Positions 10,600 through 47,064 of a stretch of DNA of 50,765 nucleotides are shown piece after piece. Both the position numbers and the translations under genes were made by a program. Positions within the stretch are counted from its first letter, which is position 1. Each line of letters opens with the position of its first letter. The DNA lies in the IMG/VR virus record IMGVR_UViG_3300048589_000316, positions 1 through 50,765 of that record; one strand, written 5' to 3'. The notes beneath the pieces are model-generated. The model saw only the letters and a list, made by a program, of their open reading frames with translations, was not told the DNA's origin and ran no database searches. The stretch comes from a virus (lineage: Duplodnaviria > Caudoviricetes).

Positions 10600-10658
10600 T
10601 TTTGTGATGTTTTTAAATGTTTAATGATACCGTAATATAGGCATAAATATTTATATAT
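10600..10658 (-). promoter_or_regulatory. Early-type promoter, operator and leader copy
   Basis: ATAAATATTTAT palindrome at 10643-10654; leader AAACATTTAAAAACATCAC before the ATG. Confidence 0.7.
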
Positions 10659-10668
10659 GTCCTACCGA

Positions 10669-13245: not shown

Positions 13246-13587
13246 TTAATTTTTATTTCTCATTGGATACTCATTTTCATCAAGGCCACCGATACCAAGT
13301 TTTCTGTTAATACCCTCGAATACCATATCGCAATCAATTGGATCAGTATCGAATAACCAATCACTACCTGGCGATCTGGATATTTTTACTACTCTATAGT
13401 ATGCATATCTTCCATCTTTCAGCTTTTCCATTGGAACAATTAATCCTACTTTACATTTTAGGTATCTTATACCACTCCATGTGAGCACTGGGAAAATATA
13501 CTCTGTCATATGAAGTGTTCTATTCCACCACACTTTTTTCATTTTCTTTGGAAGATCGTACTTCCATCTTAAATACATATTTTTCAT
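13246..13587 (-). CDS. Hypothetical protein
   Basis: 113-aa ORF with AAACATTTATATT leader. Confidence 0.6.
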   Translation of the reverse strand: MKNMYLRWKYDLPKKMKKVWWNRTLHMTEYIFPVLTWSGIRYLKCKVGLIVPMEKLKDGRYAYYRVVKISRSPGSDWLFDTDPIDCDMVFEGINRKLGIGGLDENEYPMRNKN

Positions 13588-13598
13588 AATATAAATGT

Positions 13599-14051
13599 TT
13601 AAAAAAATCTAATTTTTGACTTATCCTTATTCGGAATAAAACGCATCTGAAAACCAAATGATATGTTTCCAATGTCCTTTCCAAGAACTTGCTGATAATC
13701 GATCATAAGCCTTAGAATAATGTTTACTTCATAGAAAAATGTAGTTCCTACAAACGCATTAAGGTTGCTTTCTGGTGTCGAATGTTGACCGCCAATATTT
13801 AATGACATGGTATTAAATAACTCATATCTCAATGAAAGATCATAATTTTCAAAATCCTTTACTCCTTCCACTTTCCTGAAATCAAACTGAACACCTAGAT
13901 CATCTACTATCTTTGTTTTGGCACCTGCACCAATTGACATTCCTTTGGTTGTGGAGTAACCACCTAGTATATTTATAAATGTCTGCGAAATACCAAATAA
14001 GGGAACTAATAAAAAAATTAGTATCAATATATTCTTTCTTATAGTTTTCAT
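13599..14051 (-). CDS. Small outer-membrane beta-barrel protein
   Basis: Signal peptide ending before Gln; about 8 amphipathic beta strands; C-terminal Phe. Confidence 0.6.
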   Translation of the reverse strand: MKTIRKNILILIFLLVPLFGISQTFINILGGYSTTKGMSIGAGAKTKIVDDLGVQFDFRKVEGVKDFENYDLSLRYELFNTMSLNIGGQHSTPESNLNAFVGTTFFYEVNIILRLMIDYQQVLGKDIGNISFGFQMRFIPNKDKSKIRFF

Positions 14052-16054: not shown

Positions 16055-16108
16055 GATGTGATGTTTTATAAATGTTATACTGTAAATATAGTATAAATAT
16101 TTATATCA
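16055..16108 (-). promoter_or_regulatory. Early-type promoter, operator and leader copy
   Basis: TATAAATATTTATA at 16092-16105, TATATTTA -7-like box, ACATCACATC leader. Confidence 0.75.
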
Positions 16109-16122
16109 TCGACAAGACAACT

Positions 16123-17344: not shown

Positions 17345-18625
17345 TTACAAGTATCTGTTATGTGTAGAGTTCATGTAATTCAACAACTTGTCGAAAATAG
17401 CATCTTCAAACTCTCTTGATTCATCTACACAACCAGAATCTAAATGCATGGCTTCATGCATGATTACTTTTGCCATTGTAAACTTTCCTTTTTCAAATAA
17501 CTTTCTTGAAAGAAATATCGTTTTTTTCTCTGCTAAACCTAATGTTCTTTCACTATTGAAATCACAAAATACAATTGGGTGATCTATTGGATAATCACAT
17601 GAACTAAGATGATCCAAAATTTCTTCCAAATAATTTATCTGCGAGTCATTTGGCTCAAAAACTCTATACTTTATATATGATCCTGACATATTTTTTAAGG
17701 CGTTGTAAGACTCTCCAAATTGTGCTAATATCTGATTATAAACACTTGATGGCACCAAATAGGTTTTGTTCTTAATATTATTCTCTACCCATCCACCCAA
17801 TTCTATAGGTGCTACAAAATGACCATCCAACACTTTCTTCCAAGTGTCACTGAAAATATGTGTCTCAAACCCAAAACCATCACTTTCAATACTGTTGTTG
17901 TTTACAACTAATCTTAAATACCTTTGAATTATTTCAGGAACATCACACGAACAAAGCAATCTGTAAATAGCATCCCTCAATCCAAGGGAACTTGAATAAA
18001 TCCTAGACTCCGATATTTGAAGGCTATTGAAATTGTAACTAAATAAAAAAGCGCCGACTTCTTCATCAGTCATACATCTTATTCCTTTTCTGTAAACAAT
18101 AGTTTTTTCTGGATCATCAAGATAAATACATCCAGAATTACGTTTGTATGCCCAGGGCTTTTCAACAACAAAATAGTCCTCAATGTTATCGAGAAAATCT
18201 TTCATCGTTTCTGTTCCATTGTCTTTTACAGCAATTGTGGTTACACCTCTTACTAACTCGTATTTTTCGGCTCTATATATCCTTTCACCACCTTCATCGA
18301 TTGCATTTGAGTACAACTCTCTAATTGATTGCCAAAACGTCCACTCTGGACCAGTTTCAGTGGTTATACTTGTCTCCTTACCATTAAAGCAAATAACTTT
18401 AAAAGTTTTCTCTTTAAAAGTTTTCTCAACAGTAGAAATGATAATTTCTTCATGACCTCTAAAGATCCTAACTTTATATCCGTTCCTGATAAGATATGCA
18501 ATCGCATATTTATTTCCAGATCCGAACATACCGATCTTGTTTTTTTCATCCCTTTTTGTGGATGCCCCTAACAAGGTAAATGCTTCAACGTCTACAAGAC
18601 CGTTGTTTTTAATAACTGTGATCAT
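17345..18625 (-). CDS. GHKL-type ATPase fused to a zincin-like HExxH domain
   Basis: GASTK..IGMFGSG, RELYSNAIDE and C-terminal HEAMH. Confidence 0.7.
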   Translation of the reverse strand: MITVIKNNGLVDVEAFTLLGASTKRDEKNKIGMFGSGNKYAIAYLIRNGYKVRIFRGHEEIIISTVEKTFKEKTFKVICFNGKETSITTETGPEWTFWQSIRELYSNAIDEGGERIYRAEKYELVRGVTTIAVKDNGTETMKDFLDNIEDYFVVEKPWAYKRNSGCIYLDDPEKTIVYRKGIRCMTDEEVGAFLFSYNFNSLQISESRIYSSSLGLRDAIYRLLCSCDVPEIIQRYLRLVVNNNSIESDGFGFETHIFSDTWKKVLDGHFVAPIELGGWVENNIKNKTYLVPSSVYNQILAQFGESYNALKNMSGSYIKYRVFEPNDSQINYLEEILDHLSSCDYPIDHPIVFCDFNSERTLGLAEKKTIFLSRKLFEKGKFTMAKVIMHEAMHLDSGCVDESREFEDAIFDKLLNYMNSTHNRYL

Positions 18626-18636
18626 AATATAAATGT

Positions 18637-18855
18637 TTAATTGTTAAAATACTTTTCTATTGCTAACCTTTTGATTTCTTCAATGTGATCATCTAATAAA
18701 GCTAAAATATTGTCGCCACCATTAGCAAACACACATTCTACATCAAATTCTGGACTCGATCCAATATAGTCCATAGTTCTCGGCTCTCCTTTTGACACAA
18801 ATCCATATACTTGAAGAATTACGTCATACAATGTAATTTCGACTACAGTAATCAT
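18637..18855 (-). CDS. Hypothetical protein
   Basis: 72-aa ORF. Confidence 0.6.
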   Translation of the reverse strand: MITVVEITLYDVILQVYGFVSKGEPRTMDYIGSSPEFDVECVFANGGDNILALLDDHIEEIKRLAIEKYFNN

Positions 18856-19109: not shown

Positions 19110-19165
19110 TGTGATGTGATTTAAATGTTTACTGTAAAGATAGTATAAATATTTATATATCCTAG
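19110..19165 (-). promoter_or_regulatory. Early-type promoter, operator and leader copy
   Basis: TATAAATATTTATA at 19144-19157, TATCTTTA, AAACATTTAAATCACATCAC leader. Confidence 0.75.
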
Positions 19166-19172
19166 AAATATT

Positions 19173-21581: not shown

Positions 21582-22973
21582 TTAAAAAGGCAAATCATCC
21601 TTATCTTCTGAAACCTCAACAAATTCTGTACTATCAAGATCCAGAAACCTAGTGCAATATTCCTGAAATTTCATCCTGTTTCTAACCAATCCACCATTTC
21701 TGTTTTTTGAAACAATGTATTCCGCTTCCCCTCGGCATGATACTTTGTCATAATCATCCCACTCTTTCAATCCATAATATTCAGGTCTGTAAATAAAGAC
21801 TACCATATCTGCATCCTGTTCAATGGCTCCCGACTCTCTAAGATCTGAAAGAATAGGTCTCTTGCTTCCACCTCTAGTTTCAACACTCCTAGATAATTGA
21901 GATAAGGCAATTACAGGAATATCCAACTCAATCGCCAACTTCTTCAAACCTCTTGATATATTGGCAATTTCCTGCTCCCTATTCTTTTCGTCTCCACTCA
22001 TTAATTGGAGGTAGTCAATAATTATGATCCCTATTTTATATTCCTTATACATGGACATTGCTTTCATTCTGACCTTCTCTATTGATGAACTATGATCATC
22101 ATCAATATAAATTTTGAGATCCAGAATCTCTTGCTTGTGTTGCTCCACAATAGTCAATGAATTATTATCAAGGCCATGGGAAATAAACTTGTTTCCGTTA
22201 ACCCCTGATGCACTAGAGATAACCCTAGATGCTAACTGTTTCTTTGTCATTTCAAGACTAAAGATAAGTGCCGGCTTTCCGATACTTGAACTTTTCTTTG
22301 CACAAGCTAAAGCAAATGCAGTTTTACCCATACCTGGCCTTGCTGCTAAAACTATAAATTCTCCACCTCTCCAACCTCCTGATTTCTTAGTTAGATTTTC
22401 AATTGGCGTTGCTATTCCTGCTTCAATAGTTCCATCATGGATCTTCCTTCCTTTTTCGACAACATCATCGTACAACTCGCCTATTCTTACAGGATCGTTA
22501 TTTGATGTGAATTTATTGATCTTGTTTAATTCCTTGTACGTACTCTCGATACTCTCAAATATATTCTTGGAATCATCATAACCATTTTCAATTACTAAAT
22601 TACCCAATTTGATCAACTCCCTTGCAAGGAATTTCTGGTAAACTATTTCTGCATGATAAAGCACATGGGCAGAAGATGTTATTTTTTGGGTCAAGGTAAT
22701 TAAATGGTATTGACCTCCTACATTTTCCAATTGCTTACTATTGATCAATTCCTGCGATACTGTCAACAGGTCCACTGAATCACCTCTGGAAGTCAAATGG
22801 GCAATTGCTTCAAAAATCTTTTGATTGGCATCGAGGTAAAAACATTCTTTTTTAAGGAATGAAGAAACTTTCTCATAGCTGTCCGAATACACCAACAAAG
22901 CCCCGATTATAGCATTTTCTAAATCGGTGGCCTGTGGTGGTATTTTACCTGTTACAGTTGATTTCTGATTCAT
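21582..22973 (-). CDS. dnaB: Replicative DNA helicase
   Basis: AARPGMGKT, FSLEM, IDYLQL, LSQLSR, DLRESGAIEQDAD, KNRNG. Confidence 0.97.
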   Translation of the reverse strand: MNQKSTVTGKIPPQATDLENAIIGALLVYSDSYEKVSSFLKKECFYLDANQKIFEAIAHLTSRGDSVDLLTVSQELINSKQLENVGGQYHLITLTQKITSSAHVLYHAEIVYQKFLARELIKLGNLVIENGYDDSKNIFESIESTYKELNKINKFTSNNDPVRIGELYDDVVEKGRKIHDGTIEAGIATPIENLTKKSGGWRGGEFIVLAARPGMGKTAFALACAKKSSSIGKPALIFSLEMTKKQLASRVISSASGVNGNKFISHGLDNNSLTIVEQHKQEILDLKIYIDDDHSSSIEKVRMKAMSMYKEYKIGIIIIDYLQLMSGDEKNREQEIANISRGLKKLAIELDIPVIALSQLSRSVETRGGSKRPILSDLRESGAIEQDADMVVFIYRPEYYGLKEWDDYDKVSCRGEAEYIVSKNRNGGLVRNRMKFQEYCTRFLDLDSTEFVEVSEDKDDLPF

Positions 22974-22974
22974 T

Positions 22975-23613
22975 CTAACCTATTGGTATGTTATTGTTCA
23001 TTTCGCTTGCTGATCCTGCATCAACTTTGGTTCGATCCTTTGACATTCTAATAAAGTTAGCCAACCTTCTTTTCATATCAAAGTACTTCATGGATTCAAA
23101 CCTTAACCCATTTTCTGGTTTATCTGTGCTTTCTTCTGTCCAATAGGAAACAAAATCATTAAATAAATCAATAGTCAAACTACTTTTATACTTAGGATCA
23201 AGTTTCAATTCTGCAGCGATTATTTTTGCACTGTTCTTAAATCTGATCATTGTGCCATTATTTACAGCTCTAATTTCCTCAATAGACTTTTTGGGTTTTG
23301 TTGTTTTGGTTTTTTCAACAATTACTTTTTTTGGCAGATCTTGATTACTAGGATTGTCGTTTAAAACAAATTCTTCTTTCAGTTTGTGGTACTTGACATA
23401 TCCATACTTGGTTAACTCCTTGATCGCTGTTTTAACGCTCTGAGTGCCACAATTATTATCTTTGGATATTTGGGTCAAAGTAAACCCACTCATATCAAGG
23501 TGTGAAGCTAAATAAAGGAAAACTCCCTTACTTGAATGTGATAACCTTGGATCTCTTGCAAGGGTTTTGTGAATAGTCACACTAACCCCTTCTTTTTTTG
23601 TGATGATATACAT
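22975..23613 (-). CDS. Replication initiator (wHTH)
   Basis: DPRLS..SKG...L and AIKEL..YGY; C-terminal F..YWTE; upstream of dnaB. Confidence 0.7.
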   Translation of the reverse strand: MYIITKKEGVSVTIHKTLARDPRLSHSSKGVFLYLASHLDMSGFTLTQISKDNNCGTQSVKTAIKELTKYGYVKYHKLKEEFVLNDNPSNQDLPKKVIVEKTKTTKPKKSIEEIRAVNNGTMIRFKNSAKIIAAELKLDPKYKSSLTIDLFNDFVSYWTEESTDKPENGLRFESMKYFDMKRRLANFIRMSKDRTKVDAGSASEMNNNIPIG

Positions 23614-23634
23614 AAATGTTTGTTTTTTTTAAAG

Positions 23635-23847
23635 TTAACAATTTTGTTGGATATTCCTGTCTAATTGACGGTTTTTCAGAACACTAACAATCCATTGCTT
23701 CAAAGGTTCTCCACTTCCCATTACCTTATGGGTTATCCAGAACTCGCCACTTTTATCAGCATTAATTTCATAATCGTTACCATCTTGACAAGTTCCTAAT
23801 GACTCGATCAAGTGCTTTGCTATATCATTAAATTCTTCTTCATCCAT
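23635..23847 (-). CDS. Hypothetical protein
   Basis: 70-aa ORF. Confidence 0.5.
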   Translation of the reverse strand: MDEEEFNDIAKHLIESLGTCQDGNDYEINADKSGEFWITHKVMGSGEPLKQWIVSVLKNRQLDRNIQQNC

Positions 23848-23852
23848 AACTA

Positions 23853-24731
23853 CTAAATTTTAGGTTTATACCATCCTGTTCTTTGAACTGATTCGTAAGG
23901 AGTCATAAACCTCCAAAATGAATGACTCTGGTGCCATAGGTTATGATCAATACAATATTTAAAAGCCTGTAATACTTGAAGATAAAACCGCTTAAATTCA
24001 TGCAACAAACTTGGATCACATCTGAACTTATTTATTCCGAATGGTTCACTTGTTTCAACAACTAGCCAATAGTAATCAGGATAAACAAATTTAGTTCTTT
24101 CAATTGCCAATGTATAACCTCCTGCCTGTAGGCCATAGTCAAAATTCCATATTGATTTTTGAAACTTGGATCTTTCAGCACTTTGCGATGTCTTTAAATC
24201 ACATATCCAAGGAACACGATCATAATAATCAGATCTCATATCCAACTTGCTTAAACTCCTTAATCCTGTCTCACGATCCGTCCAATAGATTTCATCCTGC
24301 ACACTTGCCTTACCTTCCAAGAACATCTGAACATCTTCATGGTTTATAGCCCTTTGATACATCTGAAAACAGTTATCGATCTCTTGTGCTGTAACACAAA
24401 GTTTACCAACATTGTCTGCTAGAAATTCAGCTTTCGCCGCCCTTGATCCAGTTCCAGAAAAAACAGGCATTTCTACAATTGTACTATCTACAAGTTCCGG
24501 CTGTAATAACATTAATTCAAAAACATTTCCTGTATCAAATGCTTTACTTGATTTCTTATCACCGATCTTGTATTGAATAAAATCCCATGGACTTGTAACA
24601 AAGTGTTTTAAAGCCGAATAACTCAATCTAGGATTTTCAAGAAATTCAGCAATCATATGCTGATAATCTGGTGCATCTTCCTTTTGGATCTGCTTCAACT
24701 TATCCCATAGAGGTGTTTTACTTTTTACCAT
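23853..24731 (-). CDS. PD-(D/E)XK exonuclease (RecE/DUF3799-like)
   Basis: LSYSALK, KLD...DLKTS and Y.LQA..Y motifs. Confidence 0.85.
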   Translation of the reverse strand: MVKSKTPLWDKLKQIQKEDAPDYQHMIAEFLENPRLSYSALKHFVTSPWDFIQYKIGDKKSSKAFDTGNVFELMLLQPELVDSTIVEMPVFSGTGSRAAKAEFLADNVGKLCVTAQEIDNCFQMYQRAINHEDVQMFLEGKASVQDEIYWTDRETGLRSLSKLDMRSDYYDRVPWICDLKTSQSAERSKFQKSIWNFDYGLQAGGYTLAIERTKFVYPDYYWLVVETSEPFGINKFRCDPSLLHEFKRFYLQVLQAFKYCIDHNLWHQSHSFWRFMTPYESVQRTGWYKPKI

Positions 24732-25488
24732 TTTCTTTCTGTTTTTTAGCTAATACCTTTATTTGCTCCCTTACCAATCTTGAAAACTTCATATTTGGAA
24801 TCCATTCAGTTTGCTGATTTGCCCATTCAACTAGATCAAGCTGATCAGTGAAAGTATATATCGTATTAAATACATCTTCTGGTAGATCAGTTTCTTCCAC
24901 TTGACTTTCAGCTTCTTCCATTCCTTGCATTTCTTCTGCAGGTGTCGGTTCATATCCTGCCGCTTTTATCAAGAACGCAAAACTCATTCTTGCCGCCTTT
25001 CCTATGGCTCTGGTTTGGGCCATTGACAAGATACTATATTCATCAAAAGTATGCTTTGCTGTTTCTTCATTGGAACACATGGCAAAAGCCTGTGACATTA
25101 TAGACTCCTTACCATCTTTGTAAGAAACAAATTGTGCTTCTGCAAAATACTTGTAAAGTTTAGTAGAATGTTTTTTCTCAACTTTCTGTCTATTCACCCA
25201 GGCCATCCATTTAAATTCTACAGGAGCATAACTAGATTCATTTTTATAAGAAACTATCTTTCCTGTCAATCCCAACAATCCTGCAGCGAATTGCCAACCC
25301 TCTACCAAAACATAATCCTTATTCTGGATCACTGTTGAAAGATTTTGGCTCTTTACATAGGTTGCAACTTCCTGTGCAATTTTCACTACTTCCTGCGGAT
25401 CTGTCAAACCGAATTTCTTCATGTCCGATTGAGTTACAATTAACTCTTGTTTCTCCCATGGCTTTAAACTATTTTCTTCCATCTTCAT
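24718..25488 (-). CDS. Putative single-strand annealing protein
   Basis: KDYVLVEGWQ, SMAQTRA and TPAEEM motifs; paired with the exonuclease. Confidence 0.6.
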   Translation of the reverse strand: MKMEENSLKPWEKQELIVTQSDMKKFGLTDPQEVVKIAQEVATYVKSQNLSTVIQNKDYVLVEGWQFAAGLLGLTGKIVSYKNESSYAPVEFKWMAWVNRQKVEKKHSTKLYKYFAEAQFVSYKDGKESIMSQAFAMCSNEETAKHTFDEYSILSMAQTRAIGKAARMSFAFLIKAAGYEPTPAEEMQGMEEAESQVEETDLPEDVFNTIYTFTDQLDLVEWANQQTEWIPNMKFSRLVREQIKVLAKKQKENGKK

Positions 25489-25711
25489 GAATATAAATGA
25501 TTAGTGAATCTAATGACATACCCGACTCTTTGGATAATTTCTTCAATTGAGAAATGGTCTGCATGTTTTTACCGGCACGCCAATTATGAAGTGTTTGGCT
25601 TCCTTTCAAACCCAACATATCTTGGATTTCTTTCAGCGTAGGACGAACGCCTTTCTTCTCTTGGATTTTGGTCATAGCCTGATCCAAGTCAACTCGAACT
25701 TGTTTTACCAT
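25469..25711 (-). CDS. Cro/XRE-like HTH regulator
   Basis: TLKEIQDMLGLKGSQTLHNWRAG; first gene of the early operon. Confidence 0.75.
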   Translation of the reverse strand: MVKQVRVDLDQAMTKIQEKKGVRPTLKEIQDMLGLKGSQTLHNWRAGKNMQTISQLKKLSKESGMSLDSLIIYIHEDGRK

Positions 25712-25775
25712 AATGTTTAGAATTTTGATGTTACTATAAATGTTGACTCCAAATGTATATAAATATATTGATAGA
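25712..25775 (-). promoter_or_regulatory. Early promoter (TACATTTG) with degenerate operator
   Basis: Canonical -7 box at 25750-25757; adjacent TATAAATATATTG. Confidence 0.7.
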
Positions 25776-26158
25776 TAAAAATATATAGATAAAAATATTT
25801 TGACATGATCATAACTAGATACACCCTGCCCTATGCCTTACATATAAGTATTGCCGATAACCAAAGAAAAAAATCAATGGCAGATTAGCCTTTGTTACAG
25901 AAGTGCCTTAACTTCTTTTTTCACAACTATTTTCCTTTCGGTATGTATAGGGCTGTGTTGTTGGCAGGTAGAACATTGCACAGACTTTTTGTTGCGTATA
26001 ACATAAACTGCAAATTAATCTACACTAATAAAGACTTCGCTTGATTAATTCGCCTTAGTTTGAGGTTTTGGATCTTATGTCTTGGAGTAGGTCAAACAGT
26101 GGAAACACCTAACTTGCATCTTAAATTAAGAAGTTCAAATGTAAAATAAAGTTTTGAT

Positions 26159-26190
26159 AAAAAAAAACAGCCCTAAAAGTTTAGGACTGT
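26159..26190 (-). terminator. Intrinsic terminator
   Basis: ACAGCCCTAAA/TTTAGGACTGT stem with a T-run. Confidence 0.7.
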
Positions 26191-26275
26191 AATTTTAATC
26201 TTTCGATCTATGCAATTGTTCCACCGTTTGCCTGACAAATATCGTAATTAATTTTAAACCACCAAAATAATGACA

Positions 26276-26348
26276 TAAAAAAAGCCATGTAACTCCTATC
26301 GTGTACATGGCTTCTAAACATTTATATCACAACATCACTTGTGAAGTA
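26276..26348 (-). ncRNA. Candidate ~70-nt sRNA antisense to the phage leader motif
   Basis: TATCTTTG promoter at 26353-26360; body GTGATGTTGTGATATAAATGTTT; 10-bp terminator stem plus T7. Confidence 0.5.
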
Positions 26349-26387
26349 GCCACAAAGATATTGCTTATTTTGGACTTCCAAAAAAAT

Positions 26388-26804
26388 CTACAACAAAAAT
26401 AAGAATAGTATGATTGCACCAGTTCCTATAGAACCATGAATACCTCCATTGATATAAGCCTTTCTCTTGGCTTTTTTACTATCATTGATCATAAGGTTCA
26501 ACTTACTTATAATTTCCTTCTGTGATGGAACTATAATGTTCCTGTATTGATCTATTTGATTATTCAAGATGATCTCTGCACCTTCATGCTCGACAATGAT
26601 CTTCTGCATGGTTCTGTTTTCTTTTTTTAAGTATTCGACCTCGGCCTTAGTTTTCTGGAAGTTGGAAAATACATTGTTCAAAGAATCCCGATCAACAGAA
26701 ATATTATTGGTTTGACCTGATAAACTCATGCAGAATAGAATCCCGAACACTATTAGGCAATGTTTTAAATTTCTCATTGAGTTCATTAATTTTTGCTTTT
26801 TCAT
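26388..26804 (-). CDS. Putative spanin-like lysis protein
   Basis: Hydrophobic N- and C-terminal segments around a coiled coil; overlaps the upstream membrane gene. Confidence 0.5.
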   Translation of the reverse strand: MKKQKLMNSMRNLKHCLIVFGILFCMSLSGQTNNISVDRDSLNNVFSNFQKTKAEVEYLKKENRTMQKIIVEHEGAEIILNNQIDQYRNIIVPSQKEIISKLNLMINDSKKAKRKAYINGGIHGSIGTGAIILFLFLL

Positions 26805-27096
26805 TGTTAAGGGTTTTTACATTCTTGTTTAAATCTGATTTCAAATTTTCGATCCTTTCCAAAACATCTGAATACTGAACTTCAAAAGTATCAACCCTCT
26901 TTTCAGCTTCATTAATTGTGGAACTTAATTTTTCAATATCTTCTTTGTAACGCTCTGAAAGTTTTTTTATAAGGGTTTTGTTGTTGAAATAAAGATATGC
27001 TAGGAAAATGAACATAATCGCTAAAAAACCATACATGAAATATAACTTGCGTTTCTCTGGACTTATTTTTCTTGAAAAGTTTATTTCTTCATTCAT
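26704..27096 (-). CDS. Putative i-spanin (Rz-like)
   Basis: One N-terminal TM helix plus a long coiled coil, after the endolysin. Confidence 0.55.
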   Translation of the reverse strand: MNEEINFSRKISPEKRKLYFMYGFLAIMFIFLAYLYFNNKTLIKKLSERYKEDIEKLSSTINEAEKRVDTFEVQYSDVLERIENLKSDLNKNVKTLNNEKAKINELNEKFKTLPNSVRDSILHEFIRSNQ

Positions 27097-27187: not shown

Positions 27188-27544
27188 TCACCTTTGCATT
27201 TCAAAATGTGGGGTATCAACAAAACCATCTTCAATATCATTCTTGTTAAAGTCTCCACCCCACCTATTATTATCATGCAACGAAACCCAATAATCTCCCA
27301 ATGGCTTTACGTCCTCATATCTATAGGTTAATTTGCCATTTATAAAAAAATTAAAATCAACTGCCAATCTATCCAAGTGCCTACTGTTCAATGTTTGGCT
27401 TTTCCCTTCTGATTTTAGTCGTTTCTGTTCTTCTAGTGACCTCCAAGCGTGTCCAAATGTTAATTCGATATTAATGGAATATGCGAACTCTATTAAGCAT
27501 CCAATGTTTCTTGTAAAAATCCTTTGCCTTTGTCCTAACGTCAT
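27188..27544 (-). CDS. Endolysin, M15-family peptidase
   Basis: R...EQ, SRHLDRLAVD, WGG and DTPHFE motifs. Confidence 0.9.
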   Translation of the reverse strand: MTLGQRQRIFTRNIGCLIEFAYSINIELTFGHAWRSLEEQKRLKSEGKSQTLNSRHLDRLAVDFNFFINGKLTYRYEDVKPLGDYWVSLHDNNRWGGDFNKNDIEDGFVDTPHFEMQR

Positions 27545-40031: not shown

Positions 40032-43000
40032 TACGATAAACTTTTCTCAATGTTTAATAATCTTTGGTTGGTCACTCCTATTTGCTCTATAATTTGACCA
40101 GTATTTACAGAAATCATGGAAAGATACAAATTGCTTTCCCTTGCTGCTGCCAATCCAATAGAAACATCTACCCGAATTCCATTAACTGCCCCTGCCAAAA
40201 CATTTGCAGTATCTTCTGTTATGGTGGAGATCTCACCAGTTAAACCTTGTCTATCTGATTTGTCTGGTTGGAAAATATCAAACCCAAAATCTTCACTAGC
40301 ATTTTGTGCTTCCAATAGTGCTTTATTAAAATCATCTGTCAAAGTTTTACTCTGCTCAAAGAATCTAGCAAAATCATCTACCCAATTGCCATCACCTCCA
40401 AGATCGTAGGATCGTTTCATTTCTTCTTGCAATTTCTTAAACTGCTCGGAAAATATTTCATCAAAAATAAGTTGCTCTAAGATGTTTTCCAAAACTTCCG
40501 AAATTGTTTGACCCATGGCTTCTGCAGCATTTCCACCCTGCTCAAAGGTAGTTACCAAATTATCCCTCAAACTATTTCCAAGACCTCCGGCTAAAGTGTC
40601 CAACACATCTTCGATCTGCTTTCTTGCTTCTTCCATTTGATCCGTCCACTTAATGGTATCTTCAATAAGTAGCTTTGTTTTTTTGTTTACCAAATCTTGA
40701 TCGATAAGGGTTTGGGCCAACTCCTTATTAAACTTTTCTTGACCATCTGCAGATCTTTGTACTAGATCAGGATACTCAGCTAATAACTCTCCAAATAGAT
40801 CCTTTTTCTTTTTACCTCCGAACAATCCGACTAAACCACCAACAACAGCACCAATGGCTGCCCCTACAAATCCACCAACAGTTGCGCCTAATGCTGCTCC
40901 TGCTCCTGCACCAGTTCCTACTGCTCCCCAATCAATGGCATTCTTTTGACCCAATTTAGCCTGACCCTCTACAAGCTGATCAATACTTTCAGAATAATTA
41001 ACCCCTGCATCGGTCAATGCTTCCATTGCAGCCTGTAACTCATTAATATAATCAGTGGTAAATATGTTTTGATTTATAGACTCTCTTGCTAAAATCTGAT
41101 CATTCAGTAATTGGTTGTACTGCTTTTGGTACCCGATAACTGAAAGGTAATATTCTTCCTCCGCCTTTTTCCTTTTATCTGATGCATTGACCACTAGGCC
41201 AATTAAGGTAATTGCACTAGAAACACCTGCAGATATTTTTTCTGTAGGACTAGCGTTTTTATCCAATGCAGTAAATAAATTATCCAATTGAGATACAACA
41301 CCCTTAAAAGCCTTTATTAAATCAGAAGTAATTGTATCGCCTGCATCTTCAAATACAGTAGCAACCTCATTCAAACTGGTTTTAATAACTTCAATGTTAT
41401 TTTGCCATTTTTGTCTTTCACCTTGGTTTATTCTGGAAATTATCTCTAATTCTTTGGCACTTCCTTTTTCTGCCTGTTTTAGTTTTTTATTCCAGTAATC
41501 GATATAACCATTTAATTGCTGATTGGTAAAAGACTGTAGAGAAATATTCACCCCTTCATACAGGCTAATTTCTGTTTCAATATTATCCTTAGCTAGATCC
41601 AACTCTTTTTTCTTGGCATCTATTATCGTTTTCAGTTTATCCCTTTCAGCTTGATCAATTGCAGCCCTCCACTTTTTATCAAGTGCTGATAATTCTTTTT
41701 CAATGGCATTTATAGAAGTCCTGTCAACTTTAATATCCTGCACTAATGGTTGTATTTCAACATCAACTTTTTGAACGTTCTTATCTCTTGTAAATCCACT
41801 TATCCCTGCTTTTTGAGCCGCTTCTGCAATATCCTTCTGTTTACTGATACTGTCCTTATAGGTTTCAAGTTCGTTCTGCAGGAAAGTATAATAATCCTCA
41901 CCTTCTTTTAATAGGTTTTTATTGATCTCGACCGCCTTATCCTTTCCAAGTTGTATTATTTCATTTTCAAAAGCTTCATAGGCGGTTTTCTTACTGGCTA
42001 GATATTTCTTGTACGCTTCCGCTTCATCATCTAAACCGATATTACTTGGGTCTGGGTTCTCTTTTGGTTTGAAGTCGATTATCTCGGCCCTTGCCGTACT
42101 TTCCTCGCCAAGCAATTTATTTAGTTCCCTTTGAGCCGACAATTGTTCTTTTCCAAGTCCCTGTAAAAGTCCGTACTGGTACAATAGATTTCTGGATGCA
42201 TCCGATCCTTTTGCATCAATGGCCTTTACTTGATCATCAAATGACCTACCAATATTTTCCTTTATGGTAGATCTTAAATATTCACTGGCAATTTTAAGTC
42301 TATTTATTTCAGCCTGTACAACTTGCTCCTGTTGTTTGAACTTGGTCAACTTCTCTACATAGGCTATATCTTTTTTGGCAATCTCTTCCTTATTGTTTTC
42401 AAGTCTGATCCTTTTCAGTAATTGCTCATTTACACCGATCAAAGCTGATTCGATATCACCAGTGTATTCACCTTCATTCTGGATATTTTTAAGAAATGCA
42501 GGGTACTTGTCCTTTAGGATATCGATTATCTCGATCTTTCTTTCCTGTGCAACACCGCCCCTTTCAAGTTCATCCCTTAATTGCTGTAGTTCGACTCTTT
42601 CCTTCTGGTATAGATCTGCAGCAAAATTACTAGGGTCTGTCAAGTCAACTATAAATCCTGCGGCCTTATTTGCTACATCAAGCAATTCATTTCCTATGGA
42701 TTCTGTCAATGCTCTAACTCGGTTTCTTAGGATCTCAATTTGATTGATCTGCCCTGATGCCATTACACTAAATGCTTTCCTAGCACTTCCTGCAGCCGAT
42801 TCAATATCTCTAAGATCTTCTGCTGCTCCTTTTGCGTTCTTTCCTGTAGTAGCCAATATTGCACCAACGGCTTCAATTGTTCCTGTGGCTTCCTGTAGTT
42901 TTTGCACAGATCCATTTGTCCGTTCTGAAACTTCTTGCATCGCTTCCTGAAAAGTATATGCTTTACTCCAACCATCACCAAGTTCCTTATTAACCCCGAT

Positions 43001-43785: not shown

Positions 43786-43989
43786 ATGACACACATTCCA
43801 CCATTCGAGGACTATTTGACATTTCCTTTTGAATATTACAAAAGAGTTGGAAATACAATCTACCTCCGAAACAAGCATTTAGAATTTAACTTTGAGGCCG
43901 ATCAAGAGTACTTAAAAGTATTTGATCATAAGTATGAACTCAATGACTTTATTATGATTTTCCTTCCAGAAATGACTAGACTTAACTAG
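43786..43989 (+). CDS. Hypothetical protein; only credible plus-strand gene
   Basis: Fills an otherwise empty gap; convergent with the chaperone gene. Confidence 0.5.
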   Translation: MTHIPPFEDYLTFPFEYYKRVGNTIYLRNKHLEFNFEADQEYLKVFDHKYELNDFIMIFLPEMTRLN

Positions 43990-44306
43990 CTTTCGTCTGG
44001 CATCATGCCACTAAGGATATTGAATAAATGAGGTTGCTTTTTTTCAATCTTTCCACCATCTTCATCTTTTTTCAATTTGCTCTCATATCTAGGTACACTG
44101 GCACTAAGCATTATGAGGTTTTGAAATGAGATCTTATTCCTGCAGAAATTATAGGTCATACCGAAATGACTCATGCACGTACCTACAAATTGATAAGGGT
44201 TAAAACGGTTATCTTCATCTTCATCTAACTCTCCTTCACCTTCTCCACTTTCATCATCATCATCGGGTTTAGATGCTTTACAATTTGGATACAGGGTAAA
44301 AAAAAA
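43986..44306 (-). CDS. Tail assembly chaperone gpGT, -1 frame extension
   Basis: -1 frame is open from the T9 run (44298-44306) to the stop at 43986. Confidence 0.75.
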   Translation of the reverse strand, partial: FFFTLYPNCKASKPDDDDESGEGEGELDEDEDNRFNPYQFVGTCMSHFGMTYNFCRNKISFQNLIMLSASVPRYESKLKKDEDGGKIEKKQPHLFNILSGMMPDES

Positions 44307-44722
44307 TCAGTCTTGCATTTTGCCATCGACTCATGAAGCATAAAGGCCATTTCTTCGGGCGTTAAATTATCCAGTAAAAAAGGCACGTACCATAATGGCA
44401 TTTCCTTCTTTGAATAACCATGGGAAAAAATAGCAATCATTTCGCACATTTCTTTCAGATACCTAAGATATTTTACATTTTTGGAATCTTCACTGAACAC
44501 TTCATCAGGTATGCCCAGGGCTATAACACCTATTCTTTCCAGTGTAGACAATACAGGTGGTTTTACCTCAAACGTAATTTCTTCTTTGTCTTTTAGGGCT
44601 TCTGGCAATTCAGTATTGTTTACCACTTTTACGTGATACTTACTAGGTCTACTGATCAAAGCATTTAAAACCTGTTTCTTGCTTTTTATCTCTACTTCTG
44701 GGGTAATGGGTTCGGTATTCAT
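44225..44722 (-). CDS. Tail assembly chaperone gpG
   Basis: Upstream of the tape measure gene; GAT TTT TTT TTA slippery site. Confidence 0.75.
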   Translation of the reverse strand: MNTEPITPEVEIKSKKQVLNALISRPSKYHVKVVNNTELPEALKDKEEITFEVKPPVLSTLERIGVIALGIPDEVFSEDSKNVKYLRYLKEMCEMIAIFSHGYSKKEMPLWYVPFLLDNLTPEEMAFMLHESMAKCKTDFFLPCIQIVKHLNPMMMMKVEKVKES

Positions 44723-44774
44723 TGATAGTGCTTTATGAACAATTTTCGACTAAATTATATAATATCTACCTAAC

Positions 44775-44803
44775 AAAAAAAAGGAAGGCCATCAAACCTT
44801 CCC
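44775..44803 (-). terminator. Intrinsic terminator
   Basis: GGAAGG/CCTTCC stem with a T-run. Confidence 0.65.
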
Positions 44804-44825
44804 TTTCCCAATTTAAAAAACACAA

Positions 44826-45296
44826 TCACAACCAACTTTCATCTGCAAAGCTGACATAAGATTCACGTGTGTAAATCACATGATCCAATAAACTCATGTC
44901 AAGCATTTTAGCAGCTTCTTTTACTCTTTTAGTCATATCCCGATCTGCGTTGCTAGGTCTTAATGTTCCTGACGGATGATTGTGCAAGAGAATCAATCCA
45001 GTGGCTCTAACTTTCAATGCTGTGACCAATACATTTTTAATATCTACTAGGCAACCATTTGAAGATCCAACTGATAATTCTGAAATCGCCATTACATCAT
45101 TGGAATTGTTCATGCAGATAAGATGAACCTTTTCATTTAGATCAATTTGATCATCATCTACCACTGTCCTAACCAATTCGTTTGCGGATCTGGAAGATGT
45201 AATTTTAAACCTTTCTGATTTTGGCACCTTCTGAATGTATTTCAGTTGTACCTCTGATACTTTAATAGATTTGCCGGATTTAGTGTAATTTTTCAT
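44826..45296 (-). CDS. RadC-like JAB domain protein
   Basis: E...HNHPSG..RPS.AD...LLDHVI. Confidence 0.9.
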   Translation of the reverse strand: MKNYTKSGKSIKVSEVQLKYIQKVPKSERFKITSSRSANELVRTVVDDDQIDLNEKVHLICMNNSNDVMAISELSVGSSNGCLVDIKNVLVTALKVRATGLILLHNHPSGTLRPSNADRDMTKRVKEAAKMLDMSLLDHVIYTRESYVSFADESWL

Positions 45297-45360
45297 TGTG
45301 TGATGTGATGTTAAATGTTTAATTATACAATAAAGATAGTATAAATATTTATATATCCTA
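45297..45360 (-). promoter_or_regulatory. Early-type promoter, operator and leader copy
   Basis: TATAAATATTTATA at 45340-45353, TATCTTTA, ACATCACATCAC leader. Confidence 0.75.
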
Positions 45361-45410
45361 ACCTTTTCAAGAAATATTTTTAATTAGGTCGATTTCGCCA
45401 CAATTAAAAT

Positions 45411-45587
45411 CTAATCAGGTTCATCACCTGCGCTTTCGATCTCAATCACAATAAATTCTTTCCTTATGAACCAATCACTTTTATAAATCCTTTGAATATC
45501 TAGCAATTCACCAAAATGACCTATTCCACCAACTGGAAGATCTTGATCCATTTTCAATAGTTCACTTACTAATTCAGAAACTTTCAT
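45411..45587 (-). CDS. Small hypothetical protein (58 aa)
   Basis: Manual ORF MKVSELVSELLKMDQDLPV... Confidence 0.55.
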   Translation of the reverse strand: MKVSELVSELLKMDQDLPVGGIGHFGELLDIQRIYKSDWFIRKEFIVIEIESAGDEPD

Positions 45588-45834
45588 TTTGTTCTATTTT
45601 AATTAATTCTACAACTCCTTTTATGGTTATCTGGTATTCGTTTTCGTTTTCACATTTCATAATCAATTCCAGTTTAATAAGATTACTCAATAGGTATTCG
45701 GTAACAACCCAGGCTGACCCGTGTTGCATTTTTTCGTGCAATTCAGTTCCAGTTATTCCACACAAGTTAATAGGTCTTATCAATATAGATAGAACCATTT
45801 TCTGATGCCTTGAAAGTGGAATTCGTGTTTTCAT
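45574..45834 (-). CDS. Putative winged-helix protein
   Basis: L..L..LELI......YQIT.KG pattern. Confidence 0.55.
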   Translation of the reverse strand: MKTRIPLSRHQKMVLSILIRPINLCGITGTELHEKMQHGSAWVVTEYLLSNLIKLELIMKCENENEYQITIKGVVELIKIEQNESF

Positions 45835-45839
45835 TATTT

Positions 45840-45989
45840 CTACTGTACCTTTTCAATCTTCAATATATGAATAGAAGTAACATTCAAGTTTGAAGAAAAC
45901 GTCTCAATGGCTGACAATATACCAAATGCAGGTATTACTATTTCACTGATTCCGCAATGGTTCCTATATGTGATCTTATAATTGTTCAT
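45840..45989 (-). CDS. Small hypothetical protein (49 aa)
   Basis: Manual ORF, coupled to the upstream gene. Confidence 0.4.
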   Translation of the reverse strand: MNNYKITYRNHCGISEIVIPAFGILSAIETFSSNLNVTSIHILKIEKVQ

Positions 45990-46474
45990 ATCTTGTTAAT
46001 TTCACTAAATGACTTCCATCCAACTTCTGTAAAATTTGTAGAGTAAACTTCCTTTCTGGGTTTTATTGGTCTCCAATTTGGATCGCAAAATAATCTATAA
46101 TGCCAGACATCGTTTTTTATTCCAACATTAGAATAAGGAGGTTCACACCACACTAAATTTTTACTAAATCCAAAAAACATTTCAACCAATTTATGAGCTA
46201 TCTTCATTTTGTGGGGTTTCCTATTTCCAAATTTATCTACAAAACTGATTGACAAATGATAGCACCTTTCATAATCTGGATTTTTCCACCATCCACAAGT
46301 ATGGTGCCCAGAATCCCTTGTGAAAATAATCATAGCATCATACTTTTCAATCCAAAACCGGCAATTCCAAAAATAGTCATTTGGTTCTGGCGTATTGAAT
46401 ATTCCTTTAGCTGAATTAACTACAACGGTTTTTATTATTTGATTCTCACTCATGTTCATACTTAAAACTCTCAT
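45986..46474 (-). CDS. Hypothetical protein
   Basis: RD.GHH..GWWKNPDYERCYHLSIS. Confidence 0.65.
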   Translation of the reverse strand: MRVLSMNMSENQIIKTVVVNSAKGIFNTPEPNDYFWNCRFWIEKYDAMIIFTRDSGHHTCGWWKNPDYERCYHLSISFVDKFGNRKPHKMKIAHKLVEMFFGFSKNLVWCEPPYSNVGIKNDVWHYRLFCDPNWRPIKPRKEVYSTNFTEVGWKSFSEINKI

Positions 46475-46477
46475 GAC

Positions 46478-46747
46478 CTACTGTTTTTCTAAATCGATTT
46501 CTATTCCAAATAAATGATTCGGTATAAATCTATGCTGTAGGTTGAGTTTGACCATGATCCTAATACTTGACCGGCTCATTCTCAAAAATTCACTATCAGC
46601 ATAGTAAAGAGTCTTGAACTCCTTGGGTGCTACATGATCAAGGAACTCATAATATTTTATCACTTTTCCTTGTTTCAACTCTAAAAGATCGTTTTTAAGC
46701 GTTCTGATGCGTTTATTTAGCAATGGGGTTGGTATTGTGTCTCTCAT
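46478..46747 (-). CDS. Hypothetical protein
   Basis: 89-aa ORF. Confidence 0.55.
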   Translation of the reverse strand: MRDTIPTPLLNKRIRTLKNDLLELKQGKVIKYYEFLDHVAPKEFKTLYYADSEFLRMSRSSIRIMVKLNLQHRFIPNHLFGIEIDLEKQ

Positions 46748-46798
46748 ACGTTGTTTCGCTGTGGTGTTATACGTGGTGACTTCCTGTGGGTTGTTTGA

Positions 46799-46963: not shown

Positions 46964-47020
46964 GATATTGTGATGTTTAAATGTTTATTACAGTAAATGT
47001 ATGTATAAATATTTATATAA
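46964..47020 (-). promoter_or_regulatory. Early-type promoter, operator and leader copy
   Basis: TATAAATATTTATA at 47004-47017, TACATTTA, AAACATTTAAACATCAC leader. Confidence 0.75.
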
Positions 47021-47036
47021 AAAAGATAAATCGAAT

Positions 47037-47064
47037 AAAAAAGCCCATCTACGAATAGACAGGC
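47037..47064 (-). terminator. Terminator after the major tail gene
   Basis: GCCCATCTA-CGAA-TAGACAGGC with a T-run. Confidence 0.6.

What the first reader, a model, noticed from the sequence alone, without database searches (positions are those of the whole stretch)
26276..26382. Candidate trans-acting antisense sRNA against the phage's shared translation leader
Seen: a minus-strand TTTG-N18-TATCTTTG promoter (26353-26382), about 35 nt of body and a perfect 10-bp terminator hairpin with T7. The body GTGATGTTGTGATATAAATGTTT is the reverse complement of the leader found before many ATGs. It matches 15/16 to the leader at 19110 and 12/12 (ATATAAATGTTT) to those near 13590 and 18628, with GTGATGT matches near 10600, 16055, 45297 and 46964. 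It is the only opposite-orientation copy I found. Inference: one RNA could silence many early genes, acting as an early-to-late switch or a repressor substitute.
Basis: partly seen in the sequence, partly recalled or inferred. Interest (0 to 1): 0.72.

Follow-up and report, generated by a model that had tools for sequence, protein, structure and literature searches.

The report
Candidate phage anti-leader small RNA
Right after its last lysis gene, an uncultured Flavobacterium-type phage has a promoter-to-terminator unit of about 70 bases whose RNA mirrors the short leader in front of about ten of the phage's own non-structural genes, so it may switch them off together, but no RNA or evolutionary data yet show this.

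Summary
The window is a complete 50.8-kb phage genome with every gene on the minus strand. At 26276-26382 (-), 6 nt after the stop of the last lysis-module gene, there is a full Bacteroidota sigma-A consensus promoter, a body of about 31 nt and an intrinsic terminator.

The body carries the genome's only inverted copy of a two-part leader (AAACATTTA..ACATCAC). That leader stands in sense orientation before seven gene starts, and in a half form at two stop-start junctions. Among 31-nt windows of the transcribed strand, this one pairs best with those leaders. Eleven of 78 gene 5' regions pair with a net energy of -8 kcal/mol or better.

The predicted RNA is a 6-bp hairpin with GUGAUG in its loop, an open AUAUAAAUGUUU stretch, and the terminator.

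The function is not shown:
- No RNA-seq run holds the stretch.
- The only relative that keeps the region is identical there.
- Rfam gives nothing above threshold.

Flavobacterium phage tant8-1 has a similarly built unit at the same genomic position, but its target signal is weak.

Rivals are a plain late-operon terminator with a relic motif, a DNA operator, and the 5' region of a tiny ORF.

The case is plausible and moderately interesting. Earlier notes of this scan report similar candidates on other phage DNA.

The parts
26388..26804 (-). Last gene of the lysis module (138-aa frame; called as 113 aa by a public pipeline). Its stop is 6 nt upstream of the -33 box.
   Evidence: The neighbours are an endolysin (27188-27544) and an Rz-like spanin (26704-27096).
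26379..26382 (-). -33 element TTTG of the candidate promoter
   Evidence: The consensus TTTG/TANNTTTG is quoted in PMC6847099 (passages read).
26353..26360 (-). -7 element TATCTTTG (fits TAHHTTTG). The predicted start is about 26347, 5-6 nt after the G.
   Evidence: The position rule (-12 to -5, about 5 nt to the start) comes from PMC9723704 and PMC6847099. The start site itself is inferred.
26327..26344 (-). Predicted 5' hairpin SL1: a 6-bp stem (UCACAA/UUGUGA) with hexaloop GUGAUG, which is complementary to the leaders' CAUCAC
   Evidence: MFE and centroid agree. In read-through RNA a longer hairpin with the promoter sequence forms instead.
26316..26338 (-). Anti-leader 23-mer, the reverse complement of the two-part leader. 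The stretch 26316-26326 is predicted single-stranded (seed).
26276..26315 (-). Intrinsic terminator T1: hairpin (-14 kcal/mol) plus U7 (26277-26283)
   Evidence: It is one of 8 terminator-like sites on the coding strand, all of them intergenic.
26158..26190 (-). Second terminator T2 (10-bp stem, T9), about 100 nt downstream. A weaker third terminator-like site has its T-run starting at 25873.
46964..47040 (-). Promoter-leader cassette before the 54-aa gene (start 46963); predicted target
   Evidence: net -18.2 kcal/mol
45297..45365 (-). Promoter-leader cassette before the 156-aa gene (PHROG 'DNA repair protein'); predicted target
   Evidence: -14.9
25712..25785 (-). Early promoter (TACATTTG) and leader before the 80-aa HTH-like first early gene; predicted target
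   Evidence: -10.5
19110..19172 (-). Promoter-leader cassette before the 85-aa gene; best predicted target (15/16 identity to the reverse complement)
   Evidence: (-18.7)
16055..16122 (-). Promoter-leader cassette before the 68-aa gene; predicted target
   Evidence: -14.7
10600..10668 (-). Promoter-leader cassette before the 193-aa gene; predicted target
   Evidence: -12.5
13588..13600 (-). Stop-start junction carrying the half leader AAACATTTATAT, 1 nt before the ATG; predicted target
   Evidence: -11.3
18626..18638 (-). Second, identical stop-start junction with the half leader; predicted target
   Evidence: -12.0
23599..23621 (-). Leader-like motif that spans the ATG of the replication-initiator gene; predicted target
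   Evidence: -14.9

Best explanation
The locus encodes a non-coding anti-leader RNA of about 70 nt. It is made in two ways: from its own host-type (sigma-A) promoter just after the last lysis gene, and as the 3' end of the late/lysis operon transcript. Both forms end at terminator T1.

Its open stretch AUAUAAAUGUUU and the GUGAUG loop pair with the 5' leader (AAACAUUUAwA..ACAUCAC) of about ten phage mRNAs. These are the six promoter-leader cassettes, two stop-start junctions, the replication-initiator start and one or two others. Pairing covers roughly -30 to -3 of each start.

The likely host is Flavobacterium-like and has no Shine-Dalgarno pairing, so initiation there depends on an unstructured A-rich start region. 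A duplex at this place should block 30S loading, lower translation and probably shorten mRNA life. Non-structural and moron genes would then be damped as late transcription rises.

Shown here: the sequence elements, their uniqueness, their strand and the pairing potential. Inferred: the transcript ends, the pairing in vivo, the effect on translation and the timing.
For: 1. The site is the only inverted copy of a two-part motif that otherwise stands in sense orientation before gene starts: 7 sense loci against 1 antisense by regex. The intergenic counts are 12:1 and 7:1.
2. Similarity to the leaders stops at the motif; the flanks are unrelated. This argues against a recent neutral duplication.
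3. All genes are on the minus strand, and the site lies between the stop of the last late gene and a canonical terminator. The anti-leader is therefore almost certainly transcribed.
4. A full -33/-7 consensus sits 29 nt upstream. The chance density is 2.4 per 101,530 strand-positions, which gives about 1e-3 for one in a 55-nt placement window on the right strand (my arithmetic). Of 8 coding-strand terminators, only T1 has a TAHHTTTG box 30-150 nt upstream. No TANNTTTG lies on the + strand between 23465 and 30811.
5. The fold is -21.7 kcal/mol, z -3.6, and 1 of 200 shuffles folds as well. The seed is open or in a loop.
6. Pairing: the mean of the six best duplexes is -19.0 against -13.4 for shuffles, and 0 of 200 shuffles reach it.
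7. Among 20,294 windows of 31 nt, the site (-20.1; genome mean -6.3, sd 2.0) ranks first on the transcribed strand. It is beaten only by the leaders' own complements on the gene-free + strand.
8. Net cofold energy is -8 or better for 11 of 78 gene starts, against a median of -3.5.
9. Host context: 1 of 78 genes has an SD core. A is enriched at -11 to -14 and at -3, as in F. johnsoniae, where start-region structure lowers initiation (PMC6847099, passages). TerL is 55% identical to that of a Flavobacterium phage.
10. The leader also occurs without the upstream palindrome: at two operon-internal junctions and before one gene in relatives. This favours an RNA-level role for the leader.
11. Flavobacterium phage tant8-1 has a similarly built 72-nt unit (a -7 box, a 5' hairpin, an open stretch containing AAAUGUUU, and a terminator; z -4.5). 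It lies right after its last lysis-module gene, and 12 nt of it are complementary to the first early leader. That junction is 99% identical in a relative whose flanks are 77-97% identical.
Against: - No expression evidence exists. No listed run that holds the stretch is RNA.
- There is no informative conservation. The one relative with the region is identical over 22.9-26.57 kb. A second relative's contig ends 50 nt upstream. A low-depth contig differs only at 26363 and 26372, in the promoter spacer, which is within chance.
- Pairing is AU-rich and interrupted by internal loops for most targets.
- No RNA chaperone is known for this host group (from my knowledge).
- The core of the leader (TAAA-CA-TTTA) is nearly palindromic and resembles the cassette palindrome ATAAATATTTAT. 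Part of the inverted match is therefore cheap, and a DNA-binding protein could read all of these sites.
- The promoter consensus is not enriched genome-wide.
- T1 could simply be the first of three insulating terminators.
- Two 37-aa frames start inside the unit.
- In tant8-1 the first early leader ranks only 9th of 61 starts (-9.6 against a median of -6.6).
- The two units do not align convincingly.
- Phage 1/32 has only a terminator at this place.
Confidence: 0.45

Rival explanations
1. The site is an ordinary operon end. T1 is just the first of three terminators that insulate the late/lysis operon from the early promoter. The inverted leader copy is a functionless by-product of recombination between leader cassettes, and the promoter match is chance.
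For: - Three successive terminator-like sites lie in the 676-nt gap.
- Cassettes are mosaic joints: relatives keep the promoter-leader unit while the flanking genes are replaced.
- The promoter consensus occurs at chance frequency genome-wide.
- Phage 1/32 has only a terminator here.
Against: - Both halves of the motif are intact (9/9 and 7/7) while the flanks share nothing with any cassette.
- The promoter, the anti-leader and the terminator co-occur within 107 nt.
- T1 is the only one of 8 terminators with a -7 box just upstream.
- tant8-1 has a similar unit, and it is kept at 99% identity in a relative.
Confidence: 0.25
2. The motif is a DNA operator. A phage regulator (for instance the 80-aa HTH-like first early protein) binds TAAA-NN-TTTA sites: the cassette palindrome, the leaders and this extra site. 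The site at 26316-26338 then acts on DNA, as a roadblock or by looping with the early promoter 570 bp away, and not as RNA.
For: - The palindrome ATAAATATTTAT and the leader core TAAACATTTA differ by one base, and they flank the -7 box in each cassette.
- The repeat finder aligns the site to the palindrome family at 70% (family D2).
- The site and the early leader form an imperfect inverted repeat around the non-coding gap.
- In tant8-1, inverted copies flank both the gp01 and the gp19 promoters.
- A gene with a weak hit to PHROG 'transcriptional regulator' follows (E 3e-4).
Against: - The non-palindromic half ACATCAC is also present, and in the order expected for an inverted whole leader.
- The C of AAACATTT is invariant in all leaders, unlike in the palindrome.
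- The half leader occurs at operon-internal stop-start junctions where no promoter is expected.
- F. johnsoniae promoters have AT-rich motifs at -18 and -28, so the palindrome may be plain promoter DNA (PMC6847099).
Confidence: 0.15
3. The promoter drives a tiny protein gene. The 37-aa frame 26308-26195 has a hydrophobic N-terminal 25 residues and a charged tail, and it ends 5 nt before T2. Alternatively the frame 26321-26208 is read. In either case T1 is an attenuator inside the message and the anti-leader is only its 5' UTR.
For: - Both frames are open.
- The distance from the predicted start site to the ATG at 26321 is 26 nt, a typical UTR length (median 24 in F. psychrophilum, PMC9723704).
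- T2 follows directly.
- The position next to the lysis genes would suit a small membrane protein.
Against: - A canonical terminator lies inside both frames.
- There is no PHROG match (E 0.064 and 0.11).
- T-rich DNA gives hydrophobic frames by chance.
- No diverged copy exists to test coding constraint.
- A search of the large protein database was not possible because the query is under 40 aa.
Confidence: 0.08
4. The two inverted leader copies (26316-26338 and 25723-25745) are the ends of an invertible or recombining 0.6-kb segment, like the invertible promoters of Bacteroidales.
For: An imperfect inverted repeat of about 17 matches in 23 flanks the gap, which holds the early promoter. Invertible promoters are known in the phylum (PMC8748976, listing only).
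Against: - No recombinase was seen among the 29 phage proteins scanned.
- The relative and an independent contig that bridges 26173-26415 have the same orientation.
- Inversion would switch off the early operon of the phage.
Confidence: 0.02

Closest known systems
c4 antisense RNA of phages P1/P7 (immI operon)
   Same: It is a phage-encoded RNA of about 77 nt that represses phage genes by pairing with sites on a phage mRNA that its own gene does not overlap. [quoted passage not shown] The paper itself is not held.
   Different: c4 is processed from the same transcript as its single target operon (icd-ant) and serves immunity in a temperate phage of E. coli. Here there are about ten dispersed targets, an own promoter plus a shared operon terminator, and an SD-less host. 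No Rfam family, C4 included, reaches threshold.
Start-Associated Sequences (SAS/ESAS) of Cluster K mycobacteriophages (PMC3203893, passages read)
   Same: A short asymmetric motif lies a few bases before the start codons of many non-structural genes. About half of them have an upstream inverted repeat. The motif is in one orientation, except for a single opposite-strand copy in four phages. Its function is unknown, and the authors leave open binding by an RNA or a protein.
   Different: The sequence is different (GGGATAGGAGCCC, which contains an SD core) and has 0 matches in the window at up to 2 mismatches. The host phylum is different. In the passages I read, no promoter-terminator frame is described around the inverted copy.
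3'-UTR-derived sRNAs with an internal promoter (type I, e.g. MicL, DapZ of enterobacteria; recalled, no paper read)
   Same: The promoter sits at the very end of the upstream coding region. The sRNA shares the operon's terminator, so both a primary sRNA and the mRNA 3' end carry the seed.
   Different: Those are bacterial and Hfq-dependent, and they target host mRNAs. Here the element is in a phage, the targets are the phage's own leaders, and no chaperone is known.
T4 RegA / RegB (review PMC3014915, search listing and abstract only; details recalled)
   Same: The functional logic is the same: many early messages are shut off together through a short motif shared by their translation start regions.
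   Different: The T4 agents are proteins, a translational repressor and an endoribonuclease. Here the proposed agent is an RNA.
Lambda OOP, lambda aQ and P22 sar RNAs (review PMC12197685, section 2 read)
   Same: They are small phage RNAs with an own promoter and terminator that repress phage genes by base pairing.
   Different: Those are cis-antisense: they are transcribed opposite to, and overlap, their single target. This unit is co-directional with all genes and overlaps none of its predicted targets.

Membership tests
Trans-acting base-pairing small RNA | Own promoter | tested here: met
   Full TTTG-N18-TATCTTTG consensus at 26353-26382 (-). This is a sequence match only; activity was not tested.
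Trans-acting base-pairing small RNA | Rho-independent terminator that gives a discrete short RNA | tested here: met
   Hairpin of -14 kcal/mol plus U7. The transcript itself was not observed.
Trans-acting base-pairing small RNA | Accessible seed complementary to the start regions of several mRNAs encoded elsewhere | tested here: met
   11 of 78 starts at -8 kcal/mol net or better. The site is the best window on the transcribed strand.
Trans-acting base-pairing small RNA | No protein-coding function | tested here: inconclusive
   Two 37-aa frames start in the unit. They have no family match, and no diverged copy exists to test them.
Trans-acting base-pairing small RNA | Conservation, with seed and targets changing together in relatives | tested here: inconclusive
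   The only relative with the region is identical. The viral, metagenome and protein searches found no further relatives.
Trans-acting base-pairing small RNA | Detected transcript and a regulatory effect | not testable with these tools
   No RNA holder was listed.
Type I 3'-UTR-derived sRNA | Promoter at the 3' end of the upstream gene, and a terminator shared with that operon | tested here: met
   The stop is at 26388 and the -33 box at 26379-26382. T1 is the first terminator after the operon.
P1/P7 C4 antisense RNA (Rfam family) | Match to the family covariance model | tested here: not met
   No family reaches gathering score in the window. At E up to 1 there is only a sub-threshold trpB-motif hit, 27.1 bits against 59.
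Cis-antisense phage RNAs (OOP, sar, aQ) | Transcribed from the strand opposite to, and overlapping, the target gene | tested here: not met
   The unit is on the same strand as all genes and lies in intergenic DNA.
SAS/ESAS of Cluster K mycobacteriophages | 13-bp consensus GGGATAGGAGCCC 3-7 bp before start codons | tested here: not met
   0 matches at up to 2 mismatches. The resemblance is in layout only.

The most novel reading that the evidence does not exclude
A phage of an SD-less host (Flavobacterium type) runs an RNA-based global switch. One RNA of about 70 nt, made both from its own promoter and as the tail of the late/lysis operon, pairs with a private 5' leader that tags about ten non-structural and moron genes. 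It shuts them off together late in infection, as an RNA counterpart of T4 RegA/RegB. The similarly built unit in phage tant8-1, and the similar candidates noted elsewhere in this scan, would then mark a widespread and so far undescribed class of phage 'anti-leader' RNAs.
Probability: 0.33. Interest if true: 0.78.

Novelty: new variant of a known kind. Interest (0 to 1): 0.55.

Why it matters
Temporal control in phages of Bacteroidota is almost unstudied. These hosts lack Shine-Dalgarno pairing, so how a phage tunes translation there is an open question.

The phage small RNAs covered in the review section I read (PMC12197685) act on one phage gene, on a host gene, or more broadly on mRNA levels through Hfq. 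None is described as pairing with a leader shared by many of the phage's own genes. My four full-text searches on phage small RNAs and promoters listed no paper on a phage RNA that pairs with a leader shared by many of its own genes. The library is not complete.

If the reading is true, three things follow:
- It would give a function to 'start-associated' repeats, whose role has been open since they were described in mycobacteriophages (PMC3203893).
- It would show a protein-free way to shut off an early regulon.
- It would offer a compact, portable repression module for Flavobacterium genetics.

Tried and rejected
- Expression: the look-up of sequencing runs listed no RNA holder. The 3 DNA runs laid are contigs of depth 2-3 and show only two substitutions in the promoter spacer.
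- Relatives:
  - Megablast against 50,697 phage records gave nothing.
  - Three flanking proteins searched in viral contigs found only two contigs of the same phage group.
  - The exact 23-mer occurs in one of them.
  - The cassette pattern gave 7 stretches in viral contigs: 5 from three contigs of the same group and 2 unrelated.
  - The same pattern gave 80 stretches in metagenome contigs. None is a relative: blastn found only 28-50-nt promoter-like matches in 4 loci.
  - The 138-aa protein has 2 clusters among 5.8 billion proteins.
- Rfam: nothing at gathering score. The sub-threshold trpB-motif hit (27.1 bits against 59) reflects the generic hairpin-linker-terminator layout.
- tRNA: none.
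- The sigma-70-type promoter scan does not apply to this host group, and its terminator rule (loop up to 8) misses T1.
- The 277 nt between T2 and the third terminator-like site are not a structured RNA (z +0.64).
- Homology of the window's unit with that of tant8-1: the alignment is unconvincing and the neighbouring proteins are unrelated. I treat the two units as analogous, not homologous.
- More tant8-1 relatives for a covariation test: none beyond one at 99%.
I did not pursue it.
- Caveat on the gene list: the 78 genes used for the statistics come from my own simple ORF picking (ATG starts, at least 45 aa). This omits GTG/TTG starts and smaller genes.
- Supplementary files of the papers were not opened.

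Full report
**What the window is.** The window is a complete virus record of 50,765 bp with a 127-bp terminal repeat. All long open frames that tile it are on the minus strand. My simple gene list has 78 minus-strand genes and about 10% intergenic DNA.

Read along the minus strand, the order of genes is as follows:
- terminase (5643), portal and head genes;
- across the record ends, the major head protein (50154);
- a cluster of small genes (46963-43986);
- the tape measure (43693) and tail proteins;
- endolysin (27544), an Rz-like protein (27096) and a 138-aa protein (26804-26388);
- a 676-nt gene-free gap;
- the early module: an 80-aa HTH-like protein at 25711, an exonuclease, a replication initiator and DnaB.

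The best cultured relatives by TerL are Flavobacterium phages tant8-1 (55%) and 1/32 (49%). Only 1 of 78 genes has a Shine-Dalgarno core, and A is enriched at -11 to -14 and at -3. This is the pattern described for Flavobacterium johnsoniae (PMC6847099, passages). A Flavobacterium-like host is therefore likely but not shown.

**The observation.** On the minus strand the sequence runs in this order:
- the stop codon of the 138-aa gene (26388);
- TTTG (26382-26379), 18 nt of spacer, then TATCTTTG (26360-26353);
- the body;
- a hairpin (core 26311-26284);
- seven T (26283-26277).

The 23-mer at 26338-26316 is unique in the window even at 3 mismatches. Its reverse complement, AAACATTTATATCACAACATCAC, has both halves of a leader that precedes gene starts. 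A regex for the two-part leader finds seven sense loci (starts 46963, 45296, 25711, 23613, 19109, 16054, 10599) and this single antisense locus. In intergenic DNA, AACATTT occurs 12 times in sense and once in antisense, and ACATCAC 7 times and once. The antisense hits are this site. The 12-mer ATATAAATGTTT is exactly complementary to two identical stop-start junctions (13587, 18625).

**The leaders.** Six leaders belong to cassettes with the same plan: a 12-bp perfect palindrome inside ATATAAATATTTATAC, a -7-like box TAnnTTT(A/G), 4-12 nt, then AAACATTTAwA..ACATCAC and ATG. In flavobacteria the -7 box spans -12 to -5 (PMC9723704; PMC6847099). By that rule the leader motif begins at or within about 8 nt of the mRNA 5' end, so the 21-35-nt UTRs are almost wholly covered by the complementarity.

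The genes behind the cassettes are non-structural or unknown. Two cassettes (46963, 45296) sit with their own terminators inside the tail module, like morons. In relatives these cassettes are kept while the genes next to them are replaced, and one relative gene carries the leader without the palindrome.

**Is it more than chance?** The inverted two-part motif cannot be chance. The open question is its function.

- The promoter alone is weak evidence. The full consensus occurs 5 times against 2.4 expected, and TANNTTTG 71 times against 73.
- Its placement is telling. It is the only one of the five in intergenic DNA. The chance of one falling within about 55 nt upstream of the motif on the right strand is about 1e-3 (my arithmetic).
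- Of eight terminator-like sites on the coding strand, all of them intergenic, only this one has a TAHHTTTG box 30-150 nt upstream.
- The 72-nt RNA from the predicted start folds into a 6-bp hairpin with GUGAUG in the loop, an open AUAUAAAUGUUUAGA, and the terminator. The energy is -21.7 kcal/mol with z -3.6.
- In read-through RNA from the lysis gene, a longer hairpin with the promoter sequence takes up GUGAUGUUG, but it leaves the same linker open.

**Targets.**
- Duplex energies of the 31-nt body with 78 gene 5' regions put all six cassettes and a junction among the best eight. The mean of the best six is reached by 0 of 200 shuffled bodies.
- A scan of 20,294 windows on both strands against eight leaders has mean -6.3 and sd 2.0. 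The site scores -20.1. It is first on the transcribed strand, and overall it is behind only the leaders' own complements on the gene-free + strand.
- With the whole RNA and the unfolding costs included, 11 of 78 starts reach -8 kcal/mol or better, against a median of -3.5. They are 19109, 46963, 23613, 45296, 16054, 10599, 6496, 18625, 13587, 34740 and 25711.
- Pairing would cover about -30 to -3, inside the region that must be unstructured for initiation in this host group.

**What could not be tested.**
- No RNA run holds the stretch.
- The one relative that keeps the region is identical from about 22.9 to 26.57 kb and diverges to about 85% beyond that point. The identity is a shared block, not specific constraint.
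- A second relative's contig ends at the equivalent of 26441.
- A low-depth contig from another sample differs at 26363 and 26372, both in the promoter spacer, and nowhere in the transcribed 72 nt. About one change would be expected there, so this says little.
- Searches of viral contigs, metagenome contigs and the protein collection found no further relatives.
- Rfam has nothing above threshold.

**A parallel in a cultured phage.** Flavobacterium phage tant8-1 has the same genome plan. Directly after its last lysis-module gene it carries TATATTTG, a 72-nt stretch that folds as a 5' hairpin, a weakly paired stretch containing AAAUGUUUGUUUG, and a terminator (z -4.5). A 31-aa 'gp62' is annotated over this stretch. 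Twelve bases are complementary to the leader of the first early gene about 110 nt downstream. In a relative, this junction is 99% identical while the flanks are 77-97% identical.

The parallel is imperfect in four ways:
- The early leader ranks 9th of 61 starts.
- A similar inverted pair flanks the gp19 promoter only about 37 nt apart, which looks more like a DNA operator or a cis hairpin.
- The two units do not align convincingly.
- Phage 1/32 has only a terminator at this place.

**Explanations.** I favour an anti-leader RNA at 0.45. It would be made from its own promoter and as the 3' end of the late operon, and it would repress about ten leader-bearing genes by occluding their start regions.

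The rivals are:
- a plain terminator with a relic motif (0.25);
- a DNA operator of the TAAA-NN-TTTA type, shared with the cassette palindrome (0.15);
- the 5' region and attenuator of a 37-aa frame that ends just before the second terminator (0.08);
- an invertible segment (0.02).

Three points favour RNA over DNA. The non-palindromic half is present in the inverted order. The half leader occurs at operon-internal junctions. A promoter and a terminator frame the site. None of these is decisive.

**Comparison with what is known.** The unit works like the P1/P7 c4 RNA and like 3'-UTR-derived sRNAs with an internal promoter. Its logic is that of T4 RegA/RegB. It is not a member of the Rfam C4 family or of the cis-antisense class (see the membership table).

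The tagged-leader layout, including a lone opposite-strand copy, was described for the SAS/ESAS repeats of Cluster K mycobacteriophages. Their function is still open (PMC3203893).

Earlier notes of this scan report similar 'anti-leader' candidates in other phages, several of them of Flavobacterium type. They are unchecked AI notes from the same kind of reader. I count them as leads, not as support.

**Verdict.** I class it as a new variant of a known kind and give it interest 0.55.

Noticed in passing
window 46964-47040, 45297-45365, 25712-25785, 19110-19172, 16055-16122, 10600-10668 (all minus strand): Six promoter-leader cassettes share a 12-bp perfect palindrome (inside ATATAAATATTTATAC) placed at about -33 to -14 of a -7-like box. 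That box ends in A instead of the nearly invariant G in five of the six. They could be phage-factor-dependent promoters, or strong AT-rich host promoters.
   Followed up: partly
window 25873-26143 (minus strand): A second orphan unit: a -7 box TACATTTG (26136-26143) after terminator T2, about 255 nt without a minus-strand ORF of 30 aa or more, then a weak terminator-like site with its T-run starting at 25873. The stretch is not more structured than shuffles (z +0.64).
   Followed up: partly
window 25760-25800 (minus strand): AT-rich short repeats (tatcta...tatcta... type) lie just upstream of the early promoter. They could be iterons or an origin-like region. This was not tested.
   Followed up: no
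window 13585-13601 and 18623-18639 (minus strand): Two unrelated gene junctions carry the same 17-nt stop-to-start sequence: TAA, the half leader, then ATG. This suggests a portable intercistronic module.
   Followed up: partly
window 43986-47086, compared with relatives G001, G002 and G004: The cluster of small genes between the tail-tube-like gene and the tape measure is flanked by terminators. In relatives it is partly replaced by other genes while the promoter-leader cassettes stay (72 nt at 96% identity). The cassettes look like mosaic joints.
   Followed up: partly
window 22900-26567 compared with G001: A block of about 3.6 kb has zero differences. It is flanked by regions of 85-95% identity, and the switch point lies inside the 138-aa lysis-module gene. 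This points to a recent recombination between co-occurring strains.
   Followed up: yes
L110 (NC_048843.1) 40431-40531: The annotated 31-aa 'gp62' of Flavobacterium phage tant8-1 overlaps a promoter-hairpin-terminator unit. It may not be a protein gene.
   Followed up: partly
window 1070-2116 (minus strand): The 348-aa head-morphogenesis-type protein also matches a PHROG labelled 'Bxa ADP-ribosyl transferase' (E 3e-53, over residues 191-338).
   Followed up: no
L045 (short metagenome contig) around 1861-1930: An unrelated 2-kb contig has the same palindrome, a -7-like box and an AACATT-type leader before an ATG. The cassette design may therefore occur beyond this phage group.
   Followed up: no
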